A stretch of 30,553 bases of DNA from Clostridia bacterium (GCA_017503885.1 JAFVSF010000204.1:1-30553); one strand, 5' to 3'; positions 5,635 through 30,553 are shown, counted from the stretch's first letter. Program-made: numbers and translations. The notes: generated by a model not told the origin, from the sequence alone.

Positions 5635-5691
5635 ATTTACCTCCACACAATTGCCGGAATTGAACCGGCTGTTTCCTTTATTGTGATATAA

Positions 5692-5721
5692 ACTTACCGC
5701 CATGTAAGTATAGCGGTAAGT
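5692..5721 (-). terminator. Hairpin just downstream of the major capsid gene (terminator/attenuator or stabilising hairpin)
   Basis: Perfect 9-bp inverted repeat ACTTACCGC / GCGGTAAGT (5692-5700, 5713-5721), followed by TTTAT on the minus strand. Confidence 0.55.
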
Positions 5722-11883: not shown

Positions 11884-12249
11884 TTATTTTGAAAACCAAT
11901 ATTGTTTTGCAAATGACTTACAATCATTTACGTATGAAAGATACGTTAAGTATTCTTCGTCATACTGATTAGCCGAACCTTTTCTCATAAGAGCAAACTC
12001 ATCGCCATAACTGTATTTAAGACTTACAAATGCCGATGCAAGTTCTTCATAACTTTTAATTTTGTGAACTTCCAACGTCAAATTGTACTCATAAACTTTT
12101 TCTACAAGTTCTTCGCCATTTACGTCATTTACTCGTTCAACTTCTACAATGTTTTCACAAAGAGAGAGTTCTAACTCTCCGTTTGGAAGCTCGTTAATTA
12201 AAAACTTCTCAGGCTGTACAGTTGATTGGGTTTTTGTTCCTACTTTCAT
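11884..12249 (-). CDS. Hypothetical tail-associated/chaperone-like protein, 121 aa (not Avd-like)
   Basis: AAAGGAG RBS; overlaps the RT 3' end by 41 nt. It has an acidic beta-rich N-half and a KYSYGDEFALMR...Y..Y...CK..AK C-terminal pattern seen in small fibre-associated proteins. Confidence 0.6.
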   Translation of the reverse strand: MKVGTKTQSTVQPEKFLINELPNGELELSLCENIVEVERVNDVNGEELVEKVYEYNLTLEVHKIKSYEELASAFVSLKYSYGDEFALMRKGSANQYDEEYLTYLSYVNDCKSFAKQYWFSK

Positions 12250-13309
12250 TTCTTATAATCTCCTTTAATTTATTTAAGTTTATTTTACCGTCAATGTACT
12301 TATTAGTTACACCGACGCTATTTGTATGTTGAATATATCCGTTATAAGAATAAAATGCATGTGCTCGTTTGCTAGTATACTTTCCATTAACTAATTTTCT
12401 ATAAAGTCTTAGCATTCTTAAAAATATACTTTTACGAACAATTATTTTATACCTATAAAACTTATATCCTACGAAATCAGTAAATCGCTGATTAGTGATT
12501 TTGCCTTTCTTATTGTCATACGGCATCCTATAAACTTGCCAGTTAGGTTTATAAAACAAGGAGAGAGGTTTCAAATATTCTTCCGAAAGAGTTTTAACTT
12601 TATGAAGTAAACGTTTATTTCCGCCATACATTACTACATCATCCATATATCTTGCCATGTACTTAACTTTCAATGTTTCTTTTACATATCTATCATATCC
12701 GGTTAAATAAAAGTTTGCAAGATGTGCAGAAGTATAATAACCAAGTGGAAGTCCATCACCTTTGTATGCATAAATTACTTTTGATAGCAAATCTACGATA
12801 CGCTTATCCTTAAACTTATTATGCAACATAGATATTAAAGTTTCTTTATTTATATGTTTGTAAAAGCCTTTAATATCTACTTGCAAACAGTACTTAGTAT
12901 TTTTAGTATCTTTTAGAAAGTGTTGAACGGAATACTTAGCATAGTGTGTACCTCTACCTTTAATAGAGGCACAACTATACTTGTAAAAAGACTTTTCTAA
13001 CAAAGGAGCTATTTGAAGCATTATAGCCCAATGAGTACATTGCTCAGGATAATATCTTGGCTTGCAAAGAGTTCTTAACTTTCTGCTCACTCCTTCTATT
13101 ACTGTATCTACATTGCCTTGTTCTAACTCTTTTGTTCCGTCTAATACTTCCTTTATAAACTTGCTTAAGTCTTCTGCATATTTATCGACGTCCGTCAATA
13201 CACGTTTAACGTCACGTCTATGTTGTTTTCTTTTAGAAGCTTTAAGTATAGCTTTCTTACAGTTCTCGATGCTTGTTATTTCTTCATGCTTTATTTTGTA
13301 TCGTTTCAT
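12209..13309 (-). CDS. DGR reverse transcriptase, ~366 aa
   Basis: RT motifs: KLRTLCKPRYYPEQCTHWAI, SCASIKGRGTH, YCLQVDIKGFYKHI, GLPLGYYTSAHLANFYL, catalytic RYMDD and DFVGY. It is adjacent to the TR. The likely start is ATG 13309, because the track's TTG start at 13354 lies in the structured spacer. Confidence 0.95.
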   Translation of the reverse strand: MKRYKIKHEEITSIENCKKAILKASKRKQHRRDVKRVLTDVDKYAEDLSKFIKEVLDGTKELEQGNVDTVIEGVSRKLRTLCKPRYYPEQCTHWAIMLQIAPLLEKSFYKYSCASIKGRGTHYAKYSVQHFLKDTKNTKYCLQVDIKGFYKHINKETLISMLHNKFKDKRIVDLLSKVIYAYKGDGLPLGYYTSAHLANFYLTGYDRYVKETLKVKYMARYMDDVVMYGGNKRLLHKVKTLSEEYLKPLSLFYKPNWQVYRMPYDNKKGKITNQRFTDFVGYKFYRYKIIVRKSIFLRMLRLYRKLVNGKYTSKRAHAFYSYNGYIQHTNSVGVTNKYIDGKINLNKLKEIIRNESRNKNPINCTA

Positions 13310-13339
13310 ATCAAAGTAGTCTGTATCTTTCTCTTTTGC

Positions 13340-13437
13340 CACACGCGCTTTCAATTTTTAATTTACTAACACGCCTTTGAATTCGGCAATATTTTCAGCA
13401 AGGGCTGAGGTTAAATGTATGCTAATTTTTCATTACA
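13340..13437 (-). ncRNA. DGR spacer (TR-RT) structured RNA segment
   Basis: The noncoding segment between TR and RT contains the hairpin TCAGC-CCTT-GCTGA (13408-13395) and a GCGTG-TTAGTA-[AATT AAA AATT]-GAAA-GCGCGT element. In BPP-1 the spacer 3' of TR is known to provide the priming structure. Confidence 0.55.
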
Positions 13438-18975: not shown

Positions 18976-19007
18976 ATTATATTACGATTATGTTCAAAAT
19001 GTTACCT
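18976..19007 (-). promoter_or_regulatory. Candidate late promoter, copy 2: AGGTAACA-N18-TATAAT (portal operon)
   Basis: AGGTAACA at 19007-19000 includes the TerL stop codon. An 18-nt spacer follows, then TATAAT at 18981-18976, 20 nt before the portal ATG. Confidence 0.65.
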
Positions 19008-20651
19008 ACTTTTGTATCTCTTATTTTGAACGTAATCGTCAGGTGCCCACTCTAATGGAGCTCCGTATCTTTTTATGAACTCTTCTTGCTCAGCAGAATT
19101 CATTTGTTCGTAATCCTCCCACATATCCGGATACCATTTGTTAAATACAAGATAGTTCCTGTCAGGCATAGCCTCTTCACCAGTTACAAGTTTAATCAAA
19201 CGAGTCAATGCTTGTGTATCGGCGTCAACCATATCGTCGTGTTTCATAAACGGAAATTTACTATGTTGAATTACAAATTTGTCAGTCGCAGTTAATGGTT
19301 CGTTAGTGTCCCACTCTACTTCAGCATTTTCGCTTTCAGTAAAGTCATTAGGAATATGAACAACTAATGTTGCAATGAATGGCGATACCGCTTGTGCACG
19401 TGAATACTTGCCGCCCATCGGGTTAACTCCTACAATAGGAGGTACTCCGTCAGTATATCGCAATGTATCAATGATTGCGGAACCGTTTGCCTTATCTTCT
19501 ATGATGAGCTCGTCTATTCCAGGAAATTGTTCAAGGAACTTTTTAATTCGCGATACTGTGTCTACGAAACCCATACGTTTGTTTACGAGTTTATATAAGA
19601 ACACGTGATTTTGTCGAAGTCCCCAAAGTTCCATTGCGACCATGTCCGACGTTTCAGTCTTTTTGAACGTAGCGTCTATTGATAAGCAAGTATACTCAAA
19701 ATCTTCAAACCTTACGTCACGTCTACTATACAATTGCCACCAGCTCTCACGGAATAAATTACCGTTTTGTGCCGACGGGTGACCTTGATACAATGCGTTC
19801 CAAGTATATTCACCGTCACCTGCAATAACGAGTGCCTTCTTACTTTTAAGCCACTCGTTGTCGTTCCTAATCTTAGGAGGAATGTTCTTGTCGCCAAGAT
19901 GTTCACCCATCAACGCTTCACCAACTTTACGACCGAGTGGGTCGTTTTCAGCGTTCTCGCATTCGCAAGGAAGGTTAATAGTTTTCCAGATATACTCAGA
20001 CCATTTTTCCTCAATATAGCCAATTACGTCGTTTTCAACCCATCGAGTTTGTATTACAATTAACTTGCCACCGGGGTGAATACGAGACTGAACTGAAGGT
20101 CCCATTTCACCATGTATTTTTGCAAGGATTGTTTCCGACTGAGCTGCTTCTTTGTTCTTAATAGGGTCGTCAATTATGAACAATTCTGCACCGTATGATG
20201 TAATACCTGCCTTAAGACCTGCAGCACGACATCTACCGCCATCTTTTGTTTCCCATAATGCAACACCTTGTACTTGGTCGTTAGGAAGAACTCTAAATAC
20301 GTCCGTTGCATATTCGTTGAACTTGTCTCTGTTCTTACGGCTAAAACCTTCTGCAATAGTACCGTCGTACGAACAAATAATTACTGCGTCTTGAGGATGT
20401 TTGCCAAGGAACCAGGAAGGTAACGTTTCAGTTACTGTATATGATTTGCCGTGCTGAGGAGGCACCGACAAGAGAAGGATGTCCATTGCTTTGCCAGTAG
20501 GAGGCATATCGAGGAATTCTTGTATCTCTCCACATAAGTATCTATGAAATGCAGTCATACAAAAGCCTGGGTTGGCGTATTGAACATATGCTGCATAATT
20601 TTTTTGCAATTTACGTCTAAATAATTCACCGTCTAATGTATTAGCTATCAT
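19002..20651 (-). CDS. terL: Terminase large subunit, ~549 aa
   Basis: Walker A LLLSVPPQHGKS, Walker B LFIIDDPIK, coupling motif VIQTRW, and RNase-H nuclease motifs LSIDATFK and HDDMVDA. The likely start is ATG 20651 (GGAG RBS, ATGA overlap); the track start is a TTG. Confidence 0.95.
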   Translation of the reverse strand: MIANTLDGELFRRKLQKNYAAYVQYANPGFCMTAFHRYLCGEIQEFLDMPPTGKAMDILLLSVPPQHGKSYTVTETLPSWFLGKHPQDAVIICSYDGTIAEGFSRKNRDKFNEYATDVFRVLPNDQVQGVALWETKDGGRCRAAGLKAGITSYGAELFIIDDPIKNKEAAQSETILAKIHGEMGPSVQSRIHPGGKLIVIQTRWVENDVIGYIEEKWSEYIWKTINLPCECENAENDPLGRKVGEALMGEHLGDKNIPPKIRNDNEWLKSKKALVIAGDGEYTWNALYQGHPSAQNGNLFRESWWQLYSRRDVRFEDFEYTCLSIDATFKKTETSDMVAMELWGLRQNHVFLYKLVNKRMGFVDTVSRIKKFLEQFPGIDELIIEDKANGSAIIDTLRYTDGVPPIVGVNPMGGKYSRAQAVSPFIATLVVHIPNDFTESENAEVEWDTNEPLTATDKFVIQHSKFPFMKHDDMVDADTQALTRLIKLVTGEEAMPDRNYLVFNKWYPDMWEDYEQMNSAEQEEFIKRYGAPLEWAPDDYVQNKRYKSR

Positions 20652-20836
20652 TTCTTTTTCTCCGTTATCCAAGCAAGATTAAATGCAGTCAAAACTATGA
20701 CGTTTAAACAATTAAATATAAGTCCGATGTAATCAGTAACAGTAAACTTAGTAGAACATGCGAGTCCGACGCTTACGACGAATATTACTATAGTAATTAT
20801 CCAAAAGATTATGCTTATAATTTTAACTATCCTCAT
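20648..20836 (-). CDS. Small two-TM membrane protein, 62 aa
   Basis: MRIVKIISIIFWIITIVIFVVSVGL...YIGLIFNCLNVIVLTAFNLAWI, with an AAGGTG RBS before ATG 20836. Confidence 0.6.
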   Translation of the reverse strand: MRIVKIISIIFWIITIVIFVVSVGLACSTKFTVTDYIGLIFNCLNVIVLTAFNLAWITEKKK

Positions 20837-21165: not shown

Positions 21166-21465
21166 TTATCTCTGTTTCCAATGACGTCTCTCCTTTATTT
21201 TGTCCCGTAACTTACGTATTCCTAATGTAATAGCAATACATAGCGGTAGGAACGGTGTGAACGGAGCTAACCAAAATGCCCAGCACGCAGAACCGATTGC
21301 GAACCAGTAACCATCTCCTGTTATTGCTCCGATTAAGTATGGCACCCATACCTCACAAGATACTACCAAGAATACTATTACAAATATTACTAAGTTATGC
21401 CAGTCCTTTAACTGTCTCCATATCCATTTCCAAACGGATACGATTTTATTCCATAACCATCTCAT
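21166..21465 (-). CDS. Membrane protein with ~2-3 TM segments, ~99 aa
   Basis: LVIFVIVFLVVSCEVWVPYLIG and FAIGSACWAFWLAPFTPFLPLCIAITLGI, with a basic C-terminus. The likely start is MRWLWNK at 21465. Confidence 0.6.
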   Translation of the reverse strand: MRWLWNKIVSVWKWIWRQLKDWHNLVIFVIVFLVVSCEVWVPYLIGAITGDGYWFAIGSACWAFWLAPFTPFLPLCIAITLGIRKLRDKIKERRHWKQR

Positions 21466-21469
21466 TTGC

Positions 21470-21547
21470 TTACCACAATAATGCAAAGCAATCTACGAAT
21501 AATATCGCAGCACTTGCAAGCACTATCTTAATCGCCAGTCGTTTCAT
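21470..21547 (-). CDS. Possible 25-aa hydrophobic micropeptide (MKRLAIKIVLASAAILFVDCFALLW)
   Basis: Read by hand. It fills the gap between terS and the next gene and has a single hydrophobic helix, but its RBS is weak. Confidence 0.35.
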   Translation of the reverse strand: MKRLAIKIVLASAAILFVDCFALLW

Positions 21548-22046
21548 TATCGCTCGGTTCTACAAGAGGAAGTGAAGCCGAAGGCTCCTGCGCCTCGGAC
21601 TGTGCAGCTTCTAACGCCTTCTTTTCTCTCATTGCCTGCAATACTTCAAGTTCCTCGTCGGTGAGTTGCTCGTAAGGATTGCTGAGTTGTGCGTCTACTT
21701 TCGTCTCGTCAACAGGTTTAGCGCCTAACGTGTCGCGGATAAATACCGCTGCTGATGTGTCAGTTCTTGCCTTAACCATTTGACAATGAAGTATCATTTC
21801 GAGCTCAGTAGGTTCACGCTCTTCACATTGCAAAGACTTAATATCTTTTGCAAGCTTATTATAAGAGTAGCTTTCTACTTGACTGTTGAACGTTTCGTTG
21901 CCGTCTTTGTCAAACGTTTGGATAGGTTTAACTGCAGGTTGCATTGCAATAGCTATGCCGACCGATTTCCATGCTTGACGAGAAAACTTTGGATCGGAAA
22001 ACAAATTTTTCATTTCCGCCCAATCTCTATGCTGTTTGTTTGCCAT
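21528..22046 (-). CDS. terS: Terminase small subunit (probable), 172 aa
   Basis: AAAAGGAG RBS. It has a KA..D..AA.FIRDT.G.KP.D...V oligomerisation pattern and a YEQLTDEEL motif typical of TerS-like proteins. It is the first gene of the late arm, upstream of TerL. Confidence 0.65.
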   Translation of the reverse strand: MANKQHRDWAEMKNLFSDPKFSRQAWKSVGIAIAMQPAVKPIQTFDKDGNETFNSQVESYSYNKLAKDIKSLQCEEREPTELEMILHCQMVKARTDTSAAVFIRDTLGAKPVDETKVDAQLSNPYEQLTDEELEVLQAMREKKALEAAQSEAQEPSASLPLVEPSDNETTGD

Positions 22047-22078
22047 ATTGTTGTCTCCTTTTATAAGTATTCATTAGT

Positions 22079-22110
22079 ATTATATTCCGGTTTGATTAAA
22101 AATATTACCT
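22079..22110 (-). promoter_or_regulatory. Candidate late promoter, copy 1: AGGTAATA-N18-TATAAT (terS operon)
   Basis: AGGTAATA at 22110-22103, an 18-nt spacer, then TATAAT at 22084-22079, 32 nt before the terS ATG. Confidence 0.65.
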
Positions 22111-22339
22111 TATTTTGCCATTTACAGGAGATTTCGGCTATTCATTATATAATATATAGCGATTTTCTACGAAATTTTTAGATTTTTTGGAGGCGAATTA
22201 GTTTAAATGGCAATGTGCAGGAAAGCTTAATATAGTTCAAAATGTTTTGGATGTAATGTGTGGAAACTCAACTATACCGATTATAGGAGCGGCCCCGGGC
22301 CACCGATTTTTAATATTATTCAAAAGTATATTATTGTCA

Positions 22340-22835
22340 GGAGGAAACAACCCAGGGCCAAAGTCCCATTGAATAACGAAAACCTCGCCGGTCCTTTGTG
22401 GCCAGGAGTGGGCCTCCAAGTCCAGTCCAGCCCTCAGGAAGGCATCCAGAGTCGGCCTCACGGCCCGGAGTTTGGAAGGCTCCCATCGTACTCTGGTATC
22501 CGACGAGACGGACTTGCCCCGCGAGTGGGTGGACTTTCCGGAACAATCCCCGGCCACGTGACCAGTGAGCAATAACTGGCGTCAGCAAAGACGAATAGAA
22601 ACGTGCGAGCGCGTAGGCTACGACTGCAAAGACTGGCAGTATAACGCGCGAATGGTAGCCAAAGCGCCTAAACTGGTGGGCGCTGTGTAGTACACCATCG
22701 GTAGGCATATCAAAGCCGAGCCCGTAAAATAGAGCAGCAGGGAGGTTGACTTGTCCCTCTCTGCAAATATGAGCACCCGGATGGCAAAGGATAGGGTCCG
22801 ACTCCCTTGAGGCTCAACACCGCAATAGCGGCATA
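22340..22835 (+). ncRNA. Candidate large structured noncoding RNA (~500 nt), family unassigned
   Basis: 58% GC over 22381-22800 (243/420 by hand count), against roughly one third in the coding regions. It has nested long-range stems, hairpins and a pseudoknot, and the G-U pairs favour the plus strand. No credible RBS-led ORF is present. Confidence 0.65.
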
Positions 22836-22847
22836 AGGAGTACCATT

Positions 22848-23288
22848 ATGAAGGTATTAGTAAGAAAAAACAGCAGCACCAACACCGGCTACGAACTCGT
22901 AACCATCGACGACGCAGGCAAAGAAGTCGCAGTAGCAATCGACAAGACTTATCCAGGCGAACCGTTCACCCTTGTACTTCCAGCAAACGAAGTCAACCGC
23001 AAATACTTCAACAGCAAGAAAGTTGACGCTGCAGGCGGCTCTATTGAGCTCACTTTCAAGGAAAGCAAGACGTTAGGTCCTCGCACTGAGTCAGCTCCTC
23101 GCAAAGGCCTTGAGGAATACTTGGAAGGCGAAGACAAAGCAATGTACCTCGCACTCGTAGAGAAGGCTAAGGCAAATCGTGAAGCAGCTAACAAGAAAGC
23201 ACCTATGACTGAGTATGAAAAGCGCGTAAGAGCCGTTGAACGTGCTCAAGCTAAACTCGCAGAGCTCCAAGCTCAACAAAATGCATAA
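22848..23288 (+). CDS. Early protein, paralog family member A, 146 aa
   Basis: TAAGGAG RBS and strong codon bias. It shares both N- and C-terminal motifs with 25104-25607. Confidence 0.85.
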   Translation: MKVLVRKNSSTNTGYELVTIDDAGKEVAVAIDKTYPGEPFTLVLPANEVNRKYFNSKKVDAAGGSIELTFKESKTLGPRTESAPRKGLEEYLEGEDKAMYLALVEKAKANREAANKKAPMTEYEKRVRAVERAQAKLAELQAQQNA

Positions 23289-23305
23289 GGACGGAGGCTA
23301 ACACA

Positions 23306-23467
23306 ATGGCAAAAGAATACTGTAAATGCTGCGGCATAGAAATGCACGACGATTACGAATATGAATGTCCAGTTTGCGGCAACATCGTCTGCTCAATTTG
23401 CTTTGATGGCGAAATGTGCGACGACTGCCGTCAAGCTTTCAACGAAGGACATAGCGAACTTAACTAA
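23306..23467 (+). CDS. Small zinc-finger protein with four CxxC pairs, 53 aa (below the ORF-track cutoff)
   Basis: GGAGG RBS; MAKEYCKCCGIEMHDDYEYECPVCGNIVCSICFDGEMCDDCRQAFNEGHSELN. Confidence 0.75.
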   Translation: MAKEYCKCCGIEMHDDYEYECPVCGNIVCSICFDGEMCDDCRQAFNEGHSELN

Positions 23468-23479
23468 GGAGCACAAACT

Positions 23480-23872
23480 ATGACAAAAATAATGCAATGG
23501 ATGGCCTTGCCGGAGGAGTTGAGGCCGTCCAACTACGACTTAAAGCACATATCCTTACAAGATACGGAACTCTTGTTCAAAAAGGCTGACAAATTAGGCG
23601 TCCTTGACCAATTCGCAGAGTTGTTTTGGGACGCTATAAGCCTTGCTCGTCAAGAAAAGCCGTCTCTGCAAGAGTGCTTGAACCTGCTCGAGGAGCAAAA
23701 ACGCCTAATGGGCAGGCAATACGACAAAATGCCGTCAAACACGTTCGTTAGTAAGGCTCGTAAGCACTACGTAGCTACAAAATACAACGAAATAGAGCAC
23801 CAAATTCGCTGGATGGTCGATACGTTCAAGCTCACACGAACATCCGAGCCATATTTATTGGAGGTTAAGTAA
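23480..23872 (+). CDS. Hypothetical helical protein, 130 aa
   Basis: TAAGGAG RBS; TAATG-coupled to the next gene. Confidence 0.75.
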   Translation: MTKIMQWMALPEELRPSNYDLKHISLQDTELLFKKADKLGVLDQFAELFWDAISLARQEKPSLQECLNLLEEQKRLMGRQYDKMPSNTFVSKARKHYVATKYNEIEHQIRWMVDTFKLTRTSEPYLLEVK

Positions 23873-24090
23873 TGGAATACAGAATAAACGTTGCAAAACT
23901 TGAGCAACATCAAGGCAAAATGAAATACGTATATGTATTTTGTACTAAACAGCTCGGAATGTACAGCGCCAAACGAGCTTACGACGAGATTAAAGCTAAA
24001 TTTCCCGAGCCTGAGTATCAAGTAACGCTTGAAGTTTGGGAATACAGTGGCCGCGAGGTCGATGCAGCTGAGTATTTTGCAAAAGTTTAA
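23872..24090 (+). CDS. Hypothetical protein, 72 aa
   Basis: GGAGGT RBS and a TAATG overlap with the upstream gene. Confidence 0.75.
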   Translation: MEYRINVAKLEQHQGKMKYVYVFCTKQLGMYSAKRAYDEIKAKFPEPEYQVTLEVWEYSGREVDAAEYFAKV

Positions 24091-24153
24091 TTCGCAATAT
24101 GGCAGCTGAACCACCGCCGAGTCAATTTTAAGATAATTTTGGTCAGGCGAGAC

Positions 24154-24457
24154 TGATAACTGATAATCATTTTTATCAGTCACAGCATTTTTTCTAAAAG
24201 ATTTTATAATTTTAAGAGGCCCCCCCTGAAAATAAAAGTTATGGTAAAGAAATTATGCTATCAAAAAGATAGGTAAAAATTAGATTATCAGTCGCAAGTA
24301 TCAGTCTTAACTTGTTTCATCCTAAATAAGGAAACAAAAAACAAAAATTATTTTTATATATGTATATAATAGAAATAATTATGGGGGGGGGCCTCATTTT
24401 TTTATAAAAAGATTGAAAAATTTTGCTGTGACTGATAATTTTTTTTATCAGTTATCA
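24154..24457. repeat. Nested inverted-repeat AT-rich element (candidate replication origin or recombination/operator site)
   Basis: The 34-bp arms at 24154-24187 and 24424-24457 (TGCTGTGACTGATAA-N6-TTATCAGTTATCA) are identical outside N6. Inner arms GAGGC7 (24216-24226) and G9CCTC (24383-24395) each lie 28 nt from an outer arm. Extra TTATCAGT/GTATCAGT half-sites are at 24285 and 24298. Confidence 0.85.
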
Positions 24458-24517
24458 CTCTAACCACCAATCGTCATTTAATCTATAAACCTACCAATCA
24501 AAAAGGAGTATAAAAGT

Positions 24518-24955
24518 ATGAAAATCGGTAAATCAGTAGTCAACTTTTCTCTCACAGCATCGTCCGGCTGCCAGTATACCTCTCTTGCAGACGTCCCTTA
24601 CTGGTCCTTGTACAGTCGTCCAGGTGACTGTGTGCAAGAGGACATCGGCAATCAATGGCGTAGCGACCGAGCACTCACCTTTGCAGAACTCAAACAATAC
24701 CTTGAGCATTACCCTGGCCGTCGACTGCTTAACGCATATCCTCGCAAATCGCCTAACATTCGCATATCATACGCCATAAGTAAGCGAGGCAACAACATAG
24801 ACATATTCAGCAAATGGACAGGAGAGATTTATGCCACCTTTGCAATAGAGCAACCTGACAGTATCGCCGGCCTTCGCTTAACCTACCTTGCAAACAACGC
24901 ACCTTGCAACAAAACATACTACTATCTCAAGGCAGCAGCATACCTTACACGGTAA
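24518..24955 (+). CDS. Hypothetical protein, 145 aa
   Basis: AAAAGGAG RBS and an intact ORF just downstream of the inverted-repeat element. Confidence 0.7.
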   Translation: MKIGKSVVNFSLTASSGCQYTSLADVPYWSLYSRPGDCVQEDIGNQWRSDRALTFAELKQYLEHYPGRRLLNAYPRKSPNIRISYAISKRGNNIDIFSKWTGEIYATFAIEQPDSIAGLRLTYLANNAPCNKTYYYLKAAAYLTR

Positions 24956-25103
24956 ATCTTAAAAATCAAGGTGGAACAATCTTACCATTCTTTTCATATA
25001 ATATAATAGAACCGGCCGATAGACCGATAACCTATAATTTAATCAACTGATGGAGCAGTTGTTAGATAAAACAATAAATATAATTAAAAGGAGACTATTT
25101 ACA

Positions 25104-25607
25104 ATGAGTAAAAACACCAACGCAGTAGAAACTGTAGAAGAAGTAGCAGAAGTTCTCGTTGAAGGCGAAGCTTATGCAAAGATTATTAAAGACGACGAAG
25201 GCAACTTCCACGTAGTAGACTTTGACGGCACCGTAGGTCCCGCTTGTAAGTTCTGCGACGCTGACGACAAGACTATCGTCCTCACTAAAAACAAATCGAA
25301 CCGTCAATGGTTTAACAGAAAGAAAGCTGATGCTGAAATCGCTGAAAAAGGCTTCGTTGACCTTTGCTATAAACCTAGCCGTCACATCGGCAGTGTAGGC
25401 AGCAAACTTCCTAACGAGAAGCTTATTAGCTACCTTCCTGAAGCTGAACAGGCTGAATACAAGGCAATCATTGAACGTGCTATGAAGGCTCGTGAAGATG
25501 CTAAAGCTAAGCCTATGACTGAGCTTGAAAAGGCTCAAGCTAAACTTGCTAAAGCAAAAGAAGCTCTTGCTAAACTTGAAGCTCAAGCAGCAGAAGGCAA
25601 TAACTAA
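25104..25607 (+). CDS. Early protein, paralog family member B, 167 aa
   Basis: Start MSKNTNAV at 25104 behind AAAAGGAG; the track start at 25050 has no RBS. It is a paralog of 22848-23288. Confidence 0.85.
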   Translation: MSKNTNAVETVEEVAEVLVEGEAYAKIIKDDEGNFHVVDFDGTVGPACKFCDADDKTIVLTKNKSNRQWFNRKKADAEIAEKGFVDLCYKPSRHIGSVGSKLPNEKLISYLPEAEQAEYKAIIERAMKAREDAKAKPMTELEKAQAKLAKAKEALAKLEAQAAEGNN

Positions 25608-25678
25608 TACTTGCAGTGACCGTGAGCTCCATCTCTCAGTCAAGCAAAACAAATTAAAACTATAAGGAGTAAATAACA

Positions 25679-25894
25679 ATGAGTAAATCTTTAATCGACT
25701 TTATCCTCCCTGAGGACTATGACCGTTACAACGAACTTCTTTCTATGGCAGAAGAAGCTAAGGCTAATGCACCTAAAGCTCCTAGAGCAAAACGTGCTCC
25801 TATGACCGTAGAACAAAAGAAGAAGATGGCAGAAGGCAGACTTGCTAAAGCTCAAGCTGCTCTCGATGCATTACTTGCTTCTCAAAACGGCTAA
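25679..25894 (+). CDS. Early protein, paralog family member C (stand-alone C-terminal module), 71 aa
   Basis: TAAGGAG RBS; LIDFILPEDYDRYNELL...APMTVEQ...LAKAQAALDALLA. Confidence 0.85.
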   Translation: MSKSLIDFILPEDYDRYNELLSMAEEAKANAPKAPRAKRAPMTVEQKKKMAEGRLAKAQAALDALLASQNG

Positions 25895-25919
25895 TCTTTG
25901 GCCGCATTCTCATAAGTGT

Positions 25920-25945
25920 AGGCGGTGTCTTAACTGATGCCGCCT
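25920..25945 (+). terminator. Hairpin after paralog C
   Basis: AGGCGGTGTC-TTAACT-GATGCCGCCT, a 10-bp stem with two G-U pairs and a weak U tail. Confidence 0.45.
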
Positions 25946-25996
25946 CTAACTTAAATGCTAATATAAATATATTTATATAATAAAGGAGTACCTAAA

Positions 25997-26257
25997 ATGA
26001 CAGAACTATTGCAAAAACATCCAGACTTAAAAGACATCTTGCGTTCAAACCCTAACACGAAGGTATACAAAGTACTAACAGAGTCCGGTAAGATTAAGGA
26101 ATACTGGGAAAAAGACGAAAACGGTCACTGGACTGACCAAACCGCGAGAGAAAAACTCCGAGAACAAATTGAGGCTGAAAAAGAAGAGCTTGAACGATTG
26201 AAACGAGCGGCAGCAAAGAAAGCGGCTAAAAAGCAAGAGGAGGACGACTATGAGTAA
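25997..26257 (+). CDS. Hypothetical protein with a charged C-terminal helix, 86 aa
   Basis: AAAGGAG RBS. Confidence 0.75.
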   Translation: MTELLQKHPDLKDILRSNPNTKVYKVLTESGKIKEYWEKDENGHWTDQTAREKLREQIEAEKEELERLKRAAAKKAAKKQEEDDYE

Positions 26258-26684
26258 GCTATATACAGCAGAACTTAAAGCAGAGGACGTTCCAGCATAT
26301 ACTCTTGCAGGCAACGCAACAATCACATTGCAATCCGGCAACACTAATAATCACTTTACTTATAAGATTAAAAAAGCTAAAGGCAAAGAGAGCTTATACT
26401 TTATTGACTTGCTTAGTGGCTCGGACAATGAGAAGGACTACCAATACATTGGCTGTTATTACAGCGACACGGAATATTTCCATGCAGCTAAACCTTGGAA
26501 GGACCGAGTGACTATTGCTTGGCCGCCTTCCTTGCGAGCAATTCGTTTCTTTTTGAGCAAGCTTTATAATATACCTGCTAACTTACACGTATTTCACGAA
26601 GGTAGATGTGGTAGATGTGGCAGACGACTTACTACTCCAGAAAGCATTCAACGAGGCTTAGGTCCTGAGTGCTACAAGAGGTGA
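26250..26684 (+). CDS. DUF6011-like zinc-binding protein, 144 aa
   Basis: The C-terminal CGRCGRRLTTPESIQRGLGPEC matches the DUF6011 pattern; GGAGG RBS. Confidence 0.75.
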   Translation: MSKLYTAELKAEDVPAYTLAGNATITLQSGNTNNHFTYKIKKAKGKESLYFIDLLSGSDNEKDYQYIGCYYSDTEYFHAAKPWKDRVTIAWPPSLRAIRFFLSKLYNIPANLHVFHEGRCGRCGRRLTTPESIQRGLGPECYKR

Positions 26685-26687
26685 CAT

Positions 26688-26888
26688 ATGGACGATAGAC
26701 ATTTAGAAGCTCCGTGGGTTGGCAAAACTCCAGAGGAATATTACGGTTACAAAGAACAAGTCGCAGACAGATGTCAGTGCTGTGATGGCGACATAATGGT
26801 CGGTGAAGAATATTACGACATCGACGGAACTATTATATGCGAAGAGTGCATTGACGAATATAGAAAGACTGCAGAGTCAAAGGAGTAA
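26688..26888 (+). CDS. Small zinc-ribbon protein, 66 aa
   Basis: CQCCDGDI...EEYYDIDG..ICEEC; GAGGTG RBS. Confidence 0.75.
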   Translation: MDDRHLEAPWVGKTPEEYYGYKEQVADRCQCCDGDIMVGEEYYDIDGTIICEECIDEYRKTAESKE

Positions 26889-26890
26889 TT

Positions 26891-27103
26891 ATGGAAGATA
26901 AAAAAGGTTTTGTAGAAGGTTTGAGTAGTTTACTTAGTAAGCATTACAGCGGTATTGAGAGTTTGGAGTACTTTCGTCCGGGCAATGATTATAACGAAGA
27001 GGTAGTCGTAACTTACCGAGGCGGCTATCAACAACCAATTAACGTATCTTGTGACAGCATACCTGCAATGCTCCGTGATATCGCAAGGCATTTAGAGATA
27101 TGA
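26891..27103 (+). CDS. Hypothetical protein, 70 aa
   Basis: AAGGAG RBS; intact ORF, ATGA-coupled to the next gene. Confidence 0.75.
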   Translation: MEDKKGFVEGLSSLLSKHYSGIESLEYFRPGNDYNEEVVVTYRGGYQQPINVSCDSIPAMLRDIARHLEI

Positions 27104-27570
27104 TACAGAGCATTTATTTGCATAAGTACATTGTAGATACTTTAAGTTTATTCGGTGATTTATCAGTTGTTGTGAATAGAATATTGCAAGAAGGTGCAGA
27201 CGGTAAAATAGACATACTTGACAGACCTGCTTGTATGAACCGTGACGGTGCAGGAAGATACAACATAACTATAACTCAACCGGAATACTTAGAGCTATTA
27301 CAATGTTACTCGGTTAACAGTCCTAAAATATCTATACGCAGGATAATATATTGGTTCGTAGATTTTGCAATTTATGAACAGTTAGGATGGAGACCGACAA
27401 GAAAATACGAAGACAAAAGCTTACAAACATTATGTAGGCATATTGACAAAGCAAGAGCATCTATTGCAAGAATAGCATTGCTTAGGAAATACGACGAAGA
27501 AACTATAAAAAGAACTTCGTCAATAGACGATTTAATCGTTAAGTTAAAGGAGTACCTTGAGAATGGCTGA
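27100..27570 (+). CDS. Hypothetical protein, possibly a tandem ribbon-helix-helix DNA-binding protein, 156 aa
   Basis: Two beta-alpha-alpha-like units (QSIYLH-KYIVDTL-DLSVVVNRIL and RYNITIT-PEYLELL-SIRRIIYWF). The fold is an inference only. Confidence 0.55.
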   Translation: MIQSIYLHKYIVDTLSLFGDLSVVVNRILQEGADGKIDILDRPACMNRDGAGRYNITITQPEYLELLQCYSVNSPKISIRRIIYWFVDFAIYEQLGWRPTRKYEDKSLQTLCRHIDKARASIARIALLRKYDEETIKRTSSIDDLIVKLKEYLENG

Positions 27571-28390
27571 GAACATAACAAACAAATTAGTTCAACGAAT
27601 ATCCGTCAATCATACAGACGAAGAAATAAAAAGTCAATTACATACTGTTCTTGACGAACTTGAAACTATTTACTCATACTTAATATACGCTAAATATAAA
27701 GCAGAGAAATTAGTTTGCTGGCAAATAGAATACACTATTAGTCAAACCGACAAATACAATACTTTACATAGCTGTATTGTTGTAGAAGAAATATTTGCTA
27801 TACTTAAGGAAAGTAATGAGAAGAAGGTTTCAAATGTAATTGGCTATAAACAACCGTCACTTGATATACAAATACAGTTATTTGAACCGCTAATTAACAA
27901 ACTAGCATTAAAACAAATACAAAGATGGCCGCAAATAGAGTACGAAGATGCTTGCCAAATTTGCAGAATGACTATGCTAAACTTGTATCGCAAAGGCTAT
28001 TATTTGCATCCAACTCTCGTAGAACGATGCTATAATAACGATATTTTATCCTCAATTAAAAAGGACAAAAACAAACCGGAAATTATTAGTATTGACAAAG
28101 TTGTCCATCACGACGGTGATAATACTCCGTTAACGATTGGCGATATGCTTCCTGATACTCAAGCAGAGGAAGATGCTGAGCAAAAAGATGCAGAAGAGTT
28201 TATTCAACTCGTATTTGGACAAGTAAAAGAAATAATCATAGAACTAATAGGAGAACGACAGTTTGAGCAACTTATGCGTGATTATGGTAATAAACATACT
28301 ACGTCTTGGTCTCGCAAGAAAATGCAACAACTTAAAGATAAGTTTAAGCAAATGGACATAAACTGGGAGTCGTTTAATAGATACAAATAA
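27563..28390 (+). CDS. Sigma-70-family-like protein (divergent phage sigma factor), ~275 aa
   Basis: A region-2-like segment FEPLINKLA...IEYEDACQICRMTMLNL and a region-3-like segment ISIDKVVHHDGDNTPLTIGDMLPD, the latter resembling SLD..DGD.L.L.D.L.D in sporulation/FliA-type sigmas. The start is ATG 27563 behind AAAGGAG. Confidence 0.55.
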   Translation: MAENITNKLVQRISVNHTDEEIKSQLHTVLDELETIYSYLIYAKYKAEKLVCWQIEYTISQTDKYNTLHSCIVVEEIFAILKESNEKKVSNVIGYKQPSLDIQIQLFEPLINKLALKQIQRWPQIEYEDACQICRMTMLNLYRKGYYLHPTLVERCYNNDILSSIKKDKNKPEIISIDKVVHHDGDNTPLTIGDMLPDTQAEEDAEQKDAEEFIQLVFGQVKEIIIELIGERQFEQLMRDYGNKHTTSWSRKKMQQLKDKFKQMDINWESFNRYK

Positions 28391-28401
28391 GGAGAATAAC
28401 T

Positions 28402-28662
28402 ATGGAAAGAGAAAAGAAACAGTTTAGGTTGTTTGATGTATACAGACAATCATTTACAGGAACGTCAAGTAGAATTAGAGGCATAAAGAGTTATAAGTCT
28501 GGCAAATACTTTGACGAAATTGAAATTAGTATTACTTACAGTAACGGTTCGACTGCAAAGTTTATGGCAAAGAACGAAAACGAACTTAGAGAAGTAATTA
28601 AGAAAGTTAACAAAGAACTTAAAAACTGCTGCAAACCTGGCAGAAAATCTAAAAACTATTAA
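28402..28662 (+). CDS. Hypothetical basic protein, 86 aa
   Basis: TAAGGAG RBS. Confidence 0.75.
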   Translation: MEREKKQFRLFDVYRQSFTGTSSRIRGIKSYKSGKYFDEIEISITYSNGSTAKFMAKNENELREVIKKVNKELKNCCKPGRKSKNY

Positions 28663-28677
28663 ACGGAGGTATAAAAC

Positions 28678-29685
28678 ATGTCCCACAGTAACTCATCACT
28701 TAACAGCTTTGCAAATTGTATGGCAAGATACGAGCACAATTACATCTTGCATACTCCACCTTGCAAACCTGTTTCACCACACTTGACATTTGGTATTATG
28801 GCTCACGATTGCTTGTATAGAGCAGGTAAACTTCGTGACGAGTCCGACGACGGAGTAATTAAAGCAGGTGATTATCAACGAGTAATTCCATCGGAAGTTC
28901 TTTACGGAGAACTAAAAGACGAATTTGGAATTCCTAACTGGCAAAACTATTTTGTTCCAGTAATTAAACAAACCGCGGTTTATGAACGACAACTTGTAAA
29001 AGAACTTATTGATAGTCAAACTGGCAATGTTAGAGTAGAACGAGAAGTAAAACTTCAACTTACAGTAGAACAACTTAAACAACTCGGTTATACAAACATC
29101 AATCAACCTATCGTAGGTGTAATTGACTGTCTTATGTATACTGAAACTAACGCAATTATTCTTGACTATAAGTTTAGTTCAAGCAAGAAAACTCAGGACG
29201 ACTTTGATATGAACAGTCAGTTGCCTTTGTATGCATTGCTTGTTCATATTAACTACGATATTCCTTTGCATAACATTAGATACGGTTATATTGATATTCC
29301 TAAAAAAGCATTTGACAAACCTACTATTTTAAGTAACGGAACATTATCTCGTTCTAAATCACAAAACGTATCGCAAGAGTTTTATGAACAATGTGTAATC
29401 GCTATCCACGGAGACGACCCATACTACCATTGCAAAGAAGGCGGTTATTACTATGATATTTGGAACAATCTTGCATTAAACAAAGCCGCTTATTTGTCCA
29501 TCCAGTATTTAGATACAGAAGTATATTGCGGCGTACTTAACGACTTAATCGACGCAGCAAAAATGATTGACTTTATGGTTGAACATAAGATGCCGTTCTT
29601 GAAGAAATATGACGCATATTCTTGTAAAGGTTGTGAATACTTGAACGCATGCAAACCGTGGCTTACAGTAGAAGGTGACTTCTAA
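28678..29685 (+). CDS. PD-(D/E)XK nuclease, RecB/AddB/Cas4-like, with a probable Fe-S staple, 335 aa
   Basis: SHSNSSLNSFANC (N-terminal Cys), FGIMAHDCL, GVIDCL...ILDYK, QLPLYAL and C-terminal CKGCEYLNAC. Confidence 0.85.
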   Translation: MSHSNSSLNSFANCMARYEHNYILHTPPCKPVSPHLTFGIMAHDCLYRAGKLRDESDDGVIKAGDYQRVIPSEVLYGELKDEFGIPNWQNYFVPVIKQTAVYERQLVKELIDSQTGNVRVEREVKLQLTVEQLKQLGYTNINQPIVGVIDCLMYTETNAIILDYKFSSSKKTQDDFDMNSQLPLYALLVHINYDIPLHNIRYGYIDIPKKAFDKPTILSNGTLSRSKSQNVSQEFYEQCVIAIHGDDPYYHCKEGGYYYDIWNNLALNKAAYLSIQYLDTEVYCGVLNDLIDAAKMIDFMVEHKMPFLKKYDAYSCKGCEYLNACKPWLTVEGDF

Positions 29686-29813
29686 TGTTGTGGGCAGCAA
29701 TAATAGGAATACTTGTACCTATAGTTTGTATGGGTATTCCTATGATATTAGATTATAAAGCAGAAAAAAAGGAGCGTGAAGAAAATGACGATAGAAACAA
29801 TACCAATAATTAA
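29685..29813 (+). CDS. Small single-TM membrane protein, 42 aa (below the ORF-track cutoff)
   Basis: TAATG overlap with the nuclease stop; MLWAAIIGILVPIVCMGIPMILDYKAEKKEREENDDRNNTNN. Confidence 0.55.
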   Translation: MLWAAIIGILVPIVCMGIPMILDYKAEKKEREENDDRNNTNN

Positions 29814-30129
29814 CTCAGTAGTCCTTGGAATATCAGCAATTGCATTATCAGTTTGTGTAAGTATTTGGCTTAAAGCAGAAAAGAAAGCCGCGTATTACAA
29901 ACAACGAGAACTTGTTCTTAAAAAAGAGTTGGATAATGTAGCACAACACTGTTCCGAATTACAAATTCAAGTAGATGTTTGCGAAGACAGAGTTAAAGCA
30001 GCGTATGAACTTGGTTATAAAGGAAGCAAAATGTCCATCGTAAATGAAATATACGAACAATGTTGCAATCATAAATTGGCAACTGTTAAAAAGTGGTTAG
30101 TTGAAAAATACAATATTGAAACAAAATAA
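29785..30129 (+). CDS. Membrane-anchored coiled-coil protein, ~114 aa
   Basis: AAAGGAG upstream of ATG 29785. An N-terminal TM (IINSVVLGISAIALSVCVSIWL) is followed by a coiled coil. Confidence 0.65.
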   Translation: MTIETIPIINSVVLGISAIALSVCVSIWLKAEKKAAYYKQRELVLKKELDNVAQHCSELQIQVDVCEDRVKAAYELGYKGSKMSIVNEIYEQCCNHKLATVKKWLVEKYNIETK

Positions 30130-30150
30130 ATTAAAAGGAGATAAATAACT

Positions 30151-30456
30151 ATGAAAACTACAGAAAACAAAAAGGAATTTTACATTGTAAGAGGCGATAG
30201 AAGTGGCGTATTCTTTGGAAACATTAAGGAAAGAAATGGACAAGAAGTTACTATGACGAACGTTCGTAGACTTTGGTACTGGGACGGAGCAGCATCTATT
30301 AGTCAACTTGCAAAAGAAGGAACTGTAAGACCTACTAACTGTAAGTTCACCGTAACTGTAGACGAAATTCTTGTCCTTGATGCTATTGAAATTGACAAAT
30401 GCACGGATAAAGCGATTAAGTCTATCAAAGAGGTGGCAGAATGGAAAAGGAACTAA
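30151..30456 (+). CDS. DUF6948-like protein, 101 aa
   Basis: YIVRGDRSGVFFG...VRRLWYWDGAASISQLA..G...CKF...V..I.V.DAIEI matches the family pattern as I recall it; AAAAGGAG RBS. Confidence 0.75.
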   Translation: MKTTENKKEFYIVRGDRSGVFFGNIKERNGQEVTMTNVRRLWYWDGAASISQLAKEGTVRPTNCKFTVTVDEILVLDAIEIDKCTDKAIKSIKEVAEWKRN

Positions 30457-30553
30457 TCTTAAAATGGCTTAACGTTCCAGTTATTACAAATCAAGAGGAT
30501 GGCTCTGGCTATGGCGATGGCTCTGGCTATGGCGATGGCGATGGCTCTGGCTA
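30441..30553 (+). CDS. Gly-rich GSGYGD-repeat protein; partial, runs off the window end
   Basis: GAGGTG RBS and ATG 30441: MEKELILKWLNVPVITNQEDGSGYGDGSGYGDGDGSG... Confidence 0.65.
   Translation, partial: MEKELILKWLNVPVITNQEDGSGYGDGSGYGDGDGSG

What the first reader, a model, noticed from the sequence alone, without database searches (positions are those of the whole stretch)
22340..22835. Candidate large ornate noncoding RNA at the early/late divergence point
Seen: a ~500-nt island at 58% GC in a roughly one-third-GC genome, with no credible ORF. Nested long-range helices: GTGGCC/GGCCAC (22398-22403 / 22552-22557) encloses CAAGTCC/GGACTTG (22417-22423 / 22510-22516), which encloses CCAGAGT/ACTCTGG (22446-22452 / 22490-22496). 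That last stem closes a junction with hairpins GGCC-TCAC-GGCC and GGAGTT-TGGAA-GGCTCC. Then follow hairpins CCAGT/ACTGG (22562-22579), CGTC/GACG (22580-22593), AGCGCCTA/TGGGCGCT (22663-22684) and AGGGA/TCCCT near 22739-22758. G-U pairs favour the plus strand. Known: Firmicute phages carry large structured RNAs such as GOLLD and ROOL. Inference: a member of such a class or a new one, transcribed first, ahead of the early genes.
Basis: partly seen in the sequence, partly recalled or inferred. Interest (0 to 1): 0.85.

Follow-up and report, generated by a model that had tools for sequence, protein, structure and literature searches.

The report
New pseudoknotted phage leader RNA family
The GC-rich gap in front of this gut phage's first early gene encodes a real, evolutionarily conserved folded RNA of about 450 bases, with a pseudoknotted core and a tRNA-like 3' end, that matches no catalogued RNA family and whose function is unknown.

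Summary
The island is real: 56.9% GC against 37% for the rest of the window, with no conserved ORF on either strand.

It is a conserved structured RNA on the + strand. Eight homologues in five diverged clades of about 53-kb gut-metagenome phages sit in the same slot. That slot lies between a conserved promoter-like motif and the first early gene.

A covariance model built from one clade alone found the window copy at E=8e-16 and all other clades. It found nothing in sister phages that lack the island.

On the model alignment, 96% of cells pair, against 75% when shuffled and 34-43% when slid. 25 of 38 pairs show compensatory changes. Five of these are in the six pairs of a pseudoknot helix that was not part of the model.

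The conserved core runs in this order:
- closing helix P1
- two small hairpins
- a variable stem
- an H-type pseudoknot
- a hairpin with a tentative second pseudoknot
- a tRNA-like domain (7-bp acceptor stem, D-like mini-hairpin, canonical T-arm, no anticodon arm)

The 5' domains differ between clades.

Rfam 15 gives no match, including GOLLD, ROOL, tmRNA and HDV. ARAGORN calls nothing.

Three long-range helices proposed for the 5' half are not supported by the nearest homologue.

Best reading: a new RNA family made as the first part of the early transcript and probably cut free at the tRNA-like domain.

The parts
22227..22242 (+). First copy of the conserved promoter-like motif TTAATATnnTTCAAAA
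   Evidence: Read from the sequence. The same motif occurs twice in the terS/early intergenic region of every relative, with or without the RNA. Its function is inferred. It does not fit a sigma-70 consensus.
22307..22325 (+). Second copy of the motif (TTTTTAATATTATTCAAAA), directly upstream of the RNA; probable early promoter region
   Evidence: In all eight homologues the RNA starts 25-65 nt downstream of this motif. The left border of the cassette swapped in L002 lies at about 22336.
22384..22507 (+). Clade-specific 5' domain, closed by helix P1 (22384-22391 pairing with 22500-22507)
   Evidence: RNAalifold on window plus L067 gives P1 and an arm at 22393-22440 with 5 compensatory pairs. 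The P1 equivalent is CCATTAT/ATAATGG in L003 and CTCGT/ACGAG in the L010 clade. L003 has only a 5-nt loop here.
22511..22553 (+). Conserved GACTTG motif; hairpin a (22516-22519 / 22527-22530, loop ending in AGT); hairpin b (22538-22541 / 22550-22553, loop AACAnYCC)
   Evidence: Hairpin a is 96.9% paired, with GCCC/GGGT, GCCT/AGGT and GACT/AGTC variants. Hairpin b is 100% paired, with CCTG/CAGG in L003.
22555..22605 (+). Stem g (CACG 22555-22558 / CGTG 22602-22605), enclosing two clade-specific hairpins (22562-22579 and 22580-22593)
   Evidence: All 5 aligned pairs of stem g show compensatory changes across clades (helix 3). In other clades the loop is 4-12 nt.
22609..22660 (+). H-type pseudoknot A: P 22609-22614 / 22644-22649; Q 22616-22621 / 22655-22660; inner hairpin h 22624-22627 / 22636-22639
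   Evidence: Helix P has 4 of 7 pairs compensatory. Helix Q has 5 of 6 compensatory and was not in the model. Helix h has 4 of 4 compensatory. There are five different sequence versions across clades. L067 carries an expansion of about 100 nt in h.
22663..22696 (+). Hairpin d (22663-22668 / 22679-22684) and tentative pseudoknot K (d-loop 22675-22678 pairing with 22693-22696)
   Evidence: Hairpin d is 97.5% paired with compensatory changes (helix 8). K is GGTG/CACC here, GGGT/ACCT in L003, AGGTA/TACCT in L006 and the 7-bp GTACGAC/GTCGTAC in the L010 clade. The 4-bp versions could arise by chance.
22699..22764 (+). Stem i/j (22699-22724), conserved single-stranded TAAAAT (22725-22730) and hairpin e (22734-22764, loop with GACTTGT)
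   Evidence: These are present in the window/L067, L003 and L006 clades, partly in L126, and absent from the L010 clade. The helices are short, so this is the weakest part of the model.
22771..22816 (+). tRNA-like domain: acceptor stem 22771-22777 / 22809-22815, linker with GG, T-arm 22793-22807, discriminator A at 22816. This copy is eroded.
   Evidence: Alignment A13: acceptor pairs 1-5 and three T-stem pairs covary. The positions matching tRNA G53-C61, T54, C56, A58 and T60 are invariant. MFE folds of L067, L126 and L010 give acceptor stem, D-like hairpin and T-arm. L003 has a perfect 7+5 bp stack. The window copy has two acceptor mismatches and T-loop TCCGACT, and it does not fold this way. 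The domain is kept in L002, which lacks the big RNA.
22820..22850 (+). Small hairpin CCGC-aata-GCGG, Shine-Dalgarno AAGGAG (22835-22840) and the ATG of the first early gene (22848)
   Evidence: The stretch is 87% identical in L002.

Best explanation
Window 22384-22816 (+ strand) encodes a member of a previously uncatalogued family of large structured phage RNAs.

Shown: the RNA has a conserved core of about 200 nt. The order is P1, hairpins a and b, stem g, H-type pseudoknot A with an inserted variable hairpin, and hairpin d. The core is decorated with clade-specific 5' domains and ends in a tRNA-like domain with an acceptor stem, a D-like mini-hairpin and a canonical T-arm, but no anticodon arm. 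It is an exchangeable cassette. In sister phages the same slot, between the same promoter-like motif and the same tRNA-like domain, holds small protein genes instead. RNA-type libraries contain the island and the early genes but not the leftward late side.

Inferred: the RNA is the first part of the early transcript. Host RNase P, and RNase Z on the 3' side, cut at the tRNA-like domain, as they do at MALAT1/mascRNA and at tRNA-mRNA co-transcripts. That would release the folded RNA as a discrete, stable, trans-acting early RNA and leave the early mRNA separate.

What the released RNA does is unknown. Because it is an optional first-expressed cargo, I favour a host-takeover or anti-defence role, or a GOLLD/ROOL-like role, over a housekeeping one.

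My confidence differs by layer:
- real conserved structured RNA and new family: about 0.93
- co-transcribed early leader: about 0.75
- released by processing at the tRNA-like domain and acting in trans: about 0.4
For: Homologues. Eight loci in five clades occupy the same slot.

Model searches. Model R1, built from the L010/L079/L064 trio only, finds the window at 62 bits (E=7.7e-16), L067 at 1e-7, L003 at 3.5e-6, L126 at 2e-4 and L006 at 3e-4. It gives no significant hit in the seven relatives that lack the island. Model R2 raises the scores to 117, 110, 101, 29 and 27.5 bits.

Covariation. 96.2% of cells pair, against 74.9% shuffled (0 of 500 shuffles reach it) and 34-43% slid. 25 of 38 pairs show compensatory changes. 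Pseudoknot helix Q, which was not modelled, has 5 of 6 compensatory pairs.

tRNA-like domain. The covariation score is 0.76 against 0.24 shuffled (0 of 500). The G53-C61 equivalent and the T54, C56, A58 and T60 equivalents are invariant. MFE folds agree in L067, L126 and L010. A structural scan finds one such domain per locus, each at the homologous place.

Cassette exchange. L002 keeps both flanks, 22051-22336 and 22770-22850, but replaces the middle with ORFs of 107 and 77 aa.

Transcription. In runs X15 and X16, contigs cover 22376-24065 and 22657-24228. Both have zero depth at 21400-22300. One X16 contig, 22657-23071, bridges the RNA, the tRNA-like domain and gene A.

Precedent. Bacterial RNase P tolerates heavily truncated tRNA shapes. 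RNase P and RNase Z cut tRNA-like structures at the 3' ends of MALAT1 and MEN-beta. The phage P1/P7 c4 RNA precursor is an RNase P substrate (PMC4919922).
Against: - No 5' or 3' ends were mapped. The RNA-run data are low-depth contigs (3-5x), and such libraries can carry DNA.
- The X16 contig that bridges the tRNA-like domain shows that unprocessed read-through exists, or that the signal is DNA.
- The window's own tRNA-like domain is eroded: it has two acceptor mismatches, the U55 equivalent is C, and its MFE is not tRNA-like. Processing may be inefficient in this phage.
- No CCA is encoded.
- MFE z-scores for the island are unremarkable.
- The family is small. There are about ten contigs, and no match in 300 bacterial genomes of the host's family and class. 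Covariation therefore rests on five lineages.
- Helices K, i, j and e are short.
- No functional data of any kind exist.
Confidence: 0.5

Rival explanations
1. It is a purely cis-acting leader. The folded RNA stays on the early transcript. It would modify RNA polymerase as a put- or EAR-type processive antiterminator, or block 5'-exonuclease decay, or tune translation of the early operon.
For: It sits directly after the promoter-like motif and before the first early gene in all eight loci. An RNA-run contig bridges the RNA and gene A. Sister phages carry small proteins in the same first position, which recalls the N-protein versus put-RNA alternative in lambdoid phages (my own knowledge). Earlier notes of this scan describe pseudoknotted early-leader RNAs in enterobacterial phages; these notes are unchecked.
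Against: Sister phages with the same promoter motif, the same tRNA-like domain and a 73%-identical gene A do without it, so it is not needed for early-operon expression. At 300-500 nt it is far larger than put (about 70 nt) or EAR (about 120 nt). The tRNA-like domain between the RNA and the mRNA looks like a cleavage module. The RBS is not sequestered. No + strand terminator-like site was found in the 21900-23400 and 22800-30553 scans before about 24381, so nothing inside the first transcription unit needs reading through. There is no Rfam match to EAR or other leaders.
Confidence: 0.27
2. It is a diverged member of a known large RNA family: GOLLD, ROOL, raiA, OLE, tmRNA or RNase P RNA.
For: Like GOLLD and ROOL, it is phage-borne, contains pseudoknots and lies next to a tRNA-type element. 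Like GOLLD, it has a conserved 3' part and a variable 5' part (preprint 10.1101/2024.12.08.627333). Pseudoknots followed by a tRNA-like domain recall tmRNA.
Against: No Rfam 15 model matches the region even at E<=10 in the window, nor at E<=1 in six homologous loci. ARAGORN finds no tRNA or tmRNA in the window or in seven loci. The acceptor stem of the tRNA-like domain is formed locally, not by the RNA's two ends. It has no conserved G3.U70, and no tag reading frame is conserved.
Confidence: 0.03
3. The pseudoknotted core is a self-cleaving ribozyme. Its helix order P-Q-h-h'-P'-Q' matches the P1-P2-P3-P3'-P1'-P2' order of HDV-like ribozymes.
Against: Hairpin h is a variable-length stem with a 100-nt expansion in L067, unlike the short 3-bp P3 with its L3 loop. 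There is no P1.1, no P4 and no conserved C at the J4/2 position; the linker is (N)AATG. The first pair of P is not a conserved G.U. No HDV-family Rfam model matches.
Confidence: 0.04
4. It is not an RNA element at all, but a DNA-level site (pac site, origin or terminal repeat) or a decayed or unrecognised protein gene.
For: It lies next to terS, where pac sites often lie. The GC-rich composition differs from the rest of the genome. A 158-codon open frame exists on the - strand.
Against: Compensatory base-pair changes, including conserved G.U pairs that would be A.C on the other strand, point to a single-stranded + strand transcript. The open frame is absent from all homologues. Close relatives with the same terS lack the island. 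No repeats or iterons were seen in it.
Confidence: 0.03

Closest known systems
GOLLD (RF01998) and ROOL (RF03087) large ornate phage/prophage RNAs
   Same: All are several hundred nucleotides long, rich in pseudoknots, phage-encoded and of unknown function. GOLLD and ROOL are often next to tRNA genes; here the neighbour is a tRNA-like domain. Like GOLLD, this RNA has a conserved 3' part and a variable 5' part.
   Different: No sequence or structure match to either covariance model. It sits at the start of the early operon rather than in a tRNA island. It is smaller: the minimal L003 form is about 300 nt. It is known only from one phage group. Oligomerisation was not tested.
MALAT1/mascRNA and MEN-beta 3'-end processing; tRNA-mRNA co-transcripts; the phage P1/P7 c4 RNA precursor (RNase P substrates)
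   Same: A tRNA-shaped module lies directly 3' of a long noncoding RNA. It could be cut by RNase P and RNase Z to define the end of the long RNA (PMC4919922).
   Different: Cleavage here is only inferred. The module lacks an anticodon arm and an encoded CCA. The system is bacterial and phage-borne, and an mRNA follows the module.
tmRNA (SsrA)
   Same: It combines H-type pseudoknots with a tRNA-like domain that has a canonical T-arm and a D-loop analogue and lacks an anticodon arm.
   Different: Here the tRNA-like domain is a local, closed module rather than being formed by the 5' and 3' ends. There is no G3.U70, no conserved resume codon or tag ORF, and no call from ARAGORN or Rfam.
HK022 put RNAs and the Bacillus EAR RNA (cis-acting antiterminator leader RNAs)
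   Same: Each is a folded RNA transcribed first from an early or operon promoter. Sister phages use proteins in the equivalent position.
   Different: This RNA is four to six times larger and has a different fold. It is dispensable in close relatives with the same downstream genes. It is followed by a tRNA-like module, and no Rfam match exists.
Pseudoknotted early-leader RNAs of enterobacterial phages noted earlier in this scan (for example e1-202806, e1-220650)
   Same: According to those notes, a double-pseudoknot RNA sits at the start of early transcripts and is often followed by a tRNA gene.
   Different: The notes are unchecked. Model R2 finds nothing in phage P1, which those notes name as a carrier, at E<=10. 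Any relation is therefore analogy, not detectable homology.

Membership tests
GOLLD (RF01998) / ROOL (RF03087) / raiA / OLE / HEARO | Match to the family's Rfam covariance model | tested here: not met
   cmscan at gathering threshold on the window. cmscan at E<=10 on 22100-23000. cmscan at E<=1 on six homologous loci. None of these families appears.
GOLLD / ROOL | Homo-oligomeric nanocage assembly | not testable with these tools
   This needs cryo-EM or native gels of the transcript.
tmRNA | tRNA-like domain formed by pairing of the molecule's 5' and 3' ends | tested here: not met
   Both acceptor strands lie within 39-47 nt of each other at the 3' end.
tmRNA | G3.U70 alanine identity pair, and a conserved resume codon with tag ORF | tested here: not met
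   The acceptor stems differ between clades and none keeps G3.U70. Reading from the TAAAAT motif gives no conserved short ORF, by inspection of the sequences.
tmRNA / tRNA | Recognised by ARAGORN or by the Rfam tRNA/tmRNA models | tested here: not met
tRNA-like element (RNase P/Z substrate type) | Coaxial stack of a 7-bp acceptor stem and a 5-bp T-stem, with a 7-nt T-loop and equivalents of G53-C61, T54, C56 and A58 | tested here: met
   L003 has a perfect 7+5 stack. The T-loop positions are invariant across nine sequences. The window copy itself is eroded.
tRNA-like element (RNase P/Z substrate type) | Actual cleavage by RNase P and RNase Z | not testable with these tools
   The contigs of the RNA runs do not map ends.
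tRNA | Anticodon arm and full cloverleaf | tested here: not met
   Only 9-18 nt lie between the acceptor 5' strand and the T-stem.
HDV-like ribozyme | Nested double pseudoknot with a 3-bp P3, L3/P1.1, P4 and a catalytic C in J4/2 | tested here: not met
   Only the helix order is similar. Hairpin h is variable and expandable. The linker is (N)AATG. No HDV model matches.
put / EAR processive antiterminator RNAs | Match to a family model, or a two-stem put architecture of about 70 nt | tested here: not met
   No Rfam match, and the size and fold differ. Antitermination activity itself was not testable.

The most novel reading that the evidence does not exclude
This is the founding member of a new class of large phage RNAs that are delivered as 'RNA cargo' of an early-operon cassette and released by a tRNA-like punctuation module. 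The released pseudoknotted RNA would act in trans on a host machine or defence system, doing as an RNA the job that small early proteins do in sister phages.
Probability: 0.35. Interest if true: 0.85.

Novelty: new variant of a known kind. Interest (0 to 1): 0.66.

Why it matters
Large structured noncoding RNAs with unknown biochemistry are rare in bacteria and phages. GOLLD, ROOL, OLE and raiA are the known examples, and each has led to unexpected biology. This family adds several things:
- a new fold with covariation support
- a natural minimal version, L003, of about 300 nt that is suited to structure work
- clear modular borders
- natural 'knock-out' relatives in which proteins replace the RNA

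Together these make its function directly testable by cassette swaps.

The tRNA-like domain between cargo and mRNA would, if it is cleaved, be a phage example of tRNA-type punctuation defining the 3' end of a long noncoding RNA.

Tried and rejected
- Rfam at gathering and at permissive thresholds on the window and six homologous loci: nothing at the island. The only hit is RT-18 by the DGR.
- blastn of the island against 50,697 GenBank phage records: no match.
- The pattern AATGGTNNCCAANGCGCC in IMG/VR gave 49 loci, nearly all chance hits.
- The pattern TCCGGAACANTCCCCGGCC in genome contigs gave only chance hits in high-GC bacteria. In metagenome contigs it gave the useful loci L067 and L079, plus duplicates.
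- Two further IMG/VR patterns found no new clade. The weak model hit in L139 lies inside a 909-aa ORF and was rejected as false.
- Model R2 was not found in 150 genomes of the host's family or in 150 of its class.
- Model R2 against phage P1, named in earlier scan notes as carrying a double-pseudoknot leader RNA: no match at E<=10.
- MAFFT alone misaligned the pseudoknot region, so alignments were made through the covariance model.
- A long-range pairing of the hairpin-a 3' strand with the region after hairpin d was considered. It was dropped in favour of pseudoknot K because the L010 clade supports only K.
- The conserved TAAAAT as the -10 box of an internal promoter: the -35 spacing is 11 nt in L003 and L006, so this was rejected.
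- attP or tRNA-gene fragment for the tRNA-like domain: rejected, because both acceptor strands covary and no integrase is nearby.
- PHROGs and Pfam on the flanking early proteins gave no function.

Full report
**Setting**

The window is a whole 30,553-bp contig of a metagenome-assembled genome and looks like part of a phage.
- Structural and packaging genes run leftward. TerL is at 19002-20672 and a terS-like gene at 21528-22046.
- A DGR is present. Its reverse transcriptase is at 12209-13354, and an Rfam RT-18 RNA lies at 13328-13407.
- A rightward block starts at 22848.

The flagged island lies in the 800-bp divergent gap. Its GC content is 56.9%, against 37.0% for the rest of the window.

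Every + frame has six or seven stops. The one long open frame, on the - strand, disappears in the 85%-identical homologue. The region is therefore not coding.

**Known families excluded**

- cmscan against Rfam 15 finds nothing at the island at the gathering threshold.
- It finds nothing at E<=10 on 22100-23000.
- It finds nothing at E<=1 on six homologous loci.
- ARAGORN finds no tRNA or tmRNA in the window or in seven related loci.
- blastn against GenBank phage records gives no match.
- Minimum-free-energy z-scores are unremarkable, at -1.1 and -0.9. Stability alone proves nothing here.

**Homologues**

The neighbouring proteins led to a group of 51-55-kb IMG/VR phage contigs.

The closest, L002, keeps both flanks of the island: window 22051-22336 at 71% identity and 22770-22850 at 87%. 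It replaces the middle with 637 AT-rich bases that encode ORFs of 107 and 77 aa.

Other relatives (L003, L006, L010) do have a GC-rich noncoding stretch at the same place. They share short motifs with the window.

Pattern scans added L064, L067, L079 and L126. L067 is 85% identical to the window and carries an insertion of about 100 nt.

In total there are eight sequences in five clades. Each lies between a conserved promoter-like motif (TTTTTAATATnnTTCAAAA) and the ATG of a conserved gene of about 146 aa. Seven relatives lack the RNA and mostly carry small ORFs there instead.

**Structure**

By inspection the clades are collinear. The order is:
- closing helix P1
- a GACTTG motif
- hairpin a, with a loop ending in AGT
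- hairpin b, with loop AACAnYCC
- stem g
- an H-type pseudoknot (P, one A, Q, inserted hairpin h, TATA, P', AATG, Q')
- hairpin d

The helix sequences differ between clades yet stay complementary.

To test this without hand alignment, I built a covariance model from the L010/L079/L064 trio only. It used nested helices and left the pseudoknot strands unpaired. It found:
- the window core (22514-22695) at 62 bits, E=7.7e-16
- L067 at 1e-7
- L003 at 3.5e-6
- L126 at 2e-4
- L006 at 3e-4
- nothing significant in the seven relatives without the island

A second-round model raised the scores to 117, 110, 101, 29 and 27.5 bits.

On the resulting alignment:
- 96.2% of cells are standard pairs, against 74.9% in shuffles (0 of 500 reach it) and 34-43% when partners are slid
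- 25 of 38 pairs show changes on both sides
- helix Q, which the model did not know, has five of six compensatory pairs
- a G.U pair kept in 7 of 8 sequences, and 13 wobble cells in all, fix the + strand

A second pseudoknot, K, pairs the 3' part of the d-loop with a downstream segment. It has 7 bp in the L010 clade but only 4-5 bp elsewhere. I regard it as tentative.

The stem i/j, the TAAAAT motif and hairpin e are present in only some clades.

**The 5' half**

- CAAGTCC changes while its proposed partner does not.
- CCAGAGT/ACTCTGG acquires a G.A mismatch.
- GTGGCC/GGCCAC never varies.

RNAalifold on the pair gives a different fold. It closes the domain with 22384-22391 pairing to 22500-22507. 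This helix is perfect in L067 and has one C.A mismatch here. The fold contains an arm at 22393-22440 with five compensatory pairs. L067's A-to-G change at 22450 becomes a G.U pair in this fold.

Other clades have quite different 5' domains on the same P1 position. L003 has just a 7-bp hairpin. This pattern of conserved core and variable periphery is usual for large RNAs.

**The tRNA-like domain**

The 87%-conserved stretch before the RBS folds into four parts:
- a 7-bp acceptor stem
- a 9-18-nt linker that often forms a small D-like hairpin with a GG loop
- a T-arm with a 7-nt loop of the TTCGAGT type
- a discriminator base

L003 has a perfect 7+5 bp stack.

Across nine sequences, five acceptor pairs and three T-stem pairs covary. 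The equivalents of G53-C61, T54, C56, A58 and T60 are invariant.

There is no anticodon arm and no encoded CCA.

A structural scan finds exactly one such domain per locus, at the homologous place. Two extra hits are about what chance predicts.

The domain is also present in L002, after its two ORFs. It therefore belongs to the slot, not to the RNA cargo.

The window's own copy (22771-22816) is eroded. It has two acceptor mismatches and T-loop TCCGACT, and its MFE is not tRNA-like.

**Transcription**

Two RNA-type public runs contain the region. Their contigs cover 22376-22759 plus 22813-24065 (X15) and 22657-24228 (X16). Both have zero depth over 21400-22300, on the late side.

Two runs that are probably DNA cover both sides. 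This fits rightward transcription of the island together with the first early genes.

One X16 contig bridges the RNA, the tRNA-like domain and gene A. Depth is low and no ends are mapped.

A + strand terminator-like site lies at 24381-24397.

**Interpretation**

Shown: this is a conserved, pseudoknotted RNA family that is new to Rfam. It is carried as an exchangeable cassette at the head of the early operon and is bounded 3' by a tRNA-like module.

Inferred: RNase P and RNase Z cut at that module and free the RNA. Bacterial RNase P accepts truncated tRNA shapes. MALAT1 and MEN-beta 3' ends and the P1/P7 c4 precursor are precedents (PMC4919922).

The RNA's function is unknown. Its optional presence, its swap with small early proteins and its first-expressed position suggest an accessory host-takeover or anti-defence role.

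The main rival is a cis-acting leader, acting by antitermination or mRNA stabilisation. The RNA's dispensability in close relatives weakens that rival.

**Distribution**

The model found nothing in 300 bacterial genomes of the host's family and class. No further clade turned up in IMG/VR pattern scans.

Earlier notes of this scan describe double-pseudoknot early-leader RNAs before tRNA genes in enterobacterial phages. Model R2 does not match phage P1, so any link is by analogy only. The scan did not find this family on other DNA.

Noticed in passing
window 13328-13407 (-): Rfam RT-18 RNA (RF03021; 52.3 bits, above the gathering score) lies directly upstream of, and overlaps, the annotated TTG start of the DGR reverse transcriptase ORF (12209-13354). 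The true RT start is probably further downstream.
   Followed up: no
window 22227-22325: The two copies of TTAATATnnTTCAAAA bracket a conserved unit of about 80 nt, with the core ACTATAnaCCGA. It ends in a GC-rich hairpin plus a T-run (22290-22311). The same arrangement occurs in all relatives. It could be a short leader RNA with its own terminator, or an operator region.
   Followed up: partly
L002 3394-3913; L009, L012, L125 upstream of gene A: In sister phages the RNA slot holds small ORFs. Several of them (L009, L012, L125, L011) have a CPxC...C.C zinc-ribbon-like motif. They are candidate functional alternatives to the RNA.
   Followed up: no
L067 about 2070-2190 (-): An expansion of about 100 nt lies inside hairpin h of the pseudoknot. 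It forms its own long stem (CCTTGATA/TATCAAGG). A wastewater run (X18) carries the same variant, shown by a loose end at window 22626.
   Followed up: partly
L126 1140-1160 and 1430-1445: A 12-nt direct repeat, CAGTCGGTGAAA, which resembles a tRNA D-loop, occurs in the 5' domain and again in the linker of the tRNA-like domain.
   Followed up: no
window 5646-5685 (-) and L126 2017-2059 (+): Two more matches to the structural scan for the tRNA-like domain. About 0.6 chance hits were expected, so these are probably chance. The window hit lies inside ORF 5029-5703.
   Followed up: no
L003 3626-3680: A tandem duplication of a 26-nt AT-rich unit (TTATTATATTGAGAGAAATCTCAAAA) lies between the promoter-like motif and the start of the RNA.
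   Followed up: no
window 24381-24397 (+): A terminator-like hairpin with a T-run lies inside the 24154-24457 gene-free element. It may end the first early transcription unit. Contigs of the RNA runs stop at 24065 and 24228.
   Followed up: no
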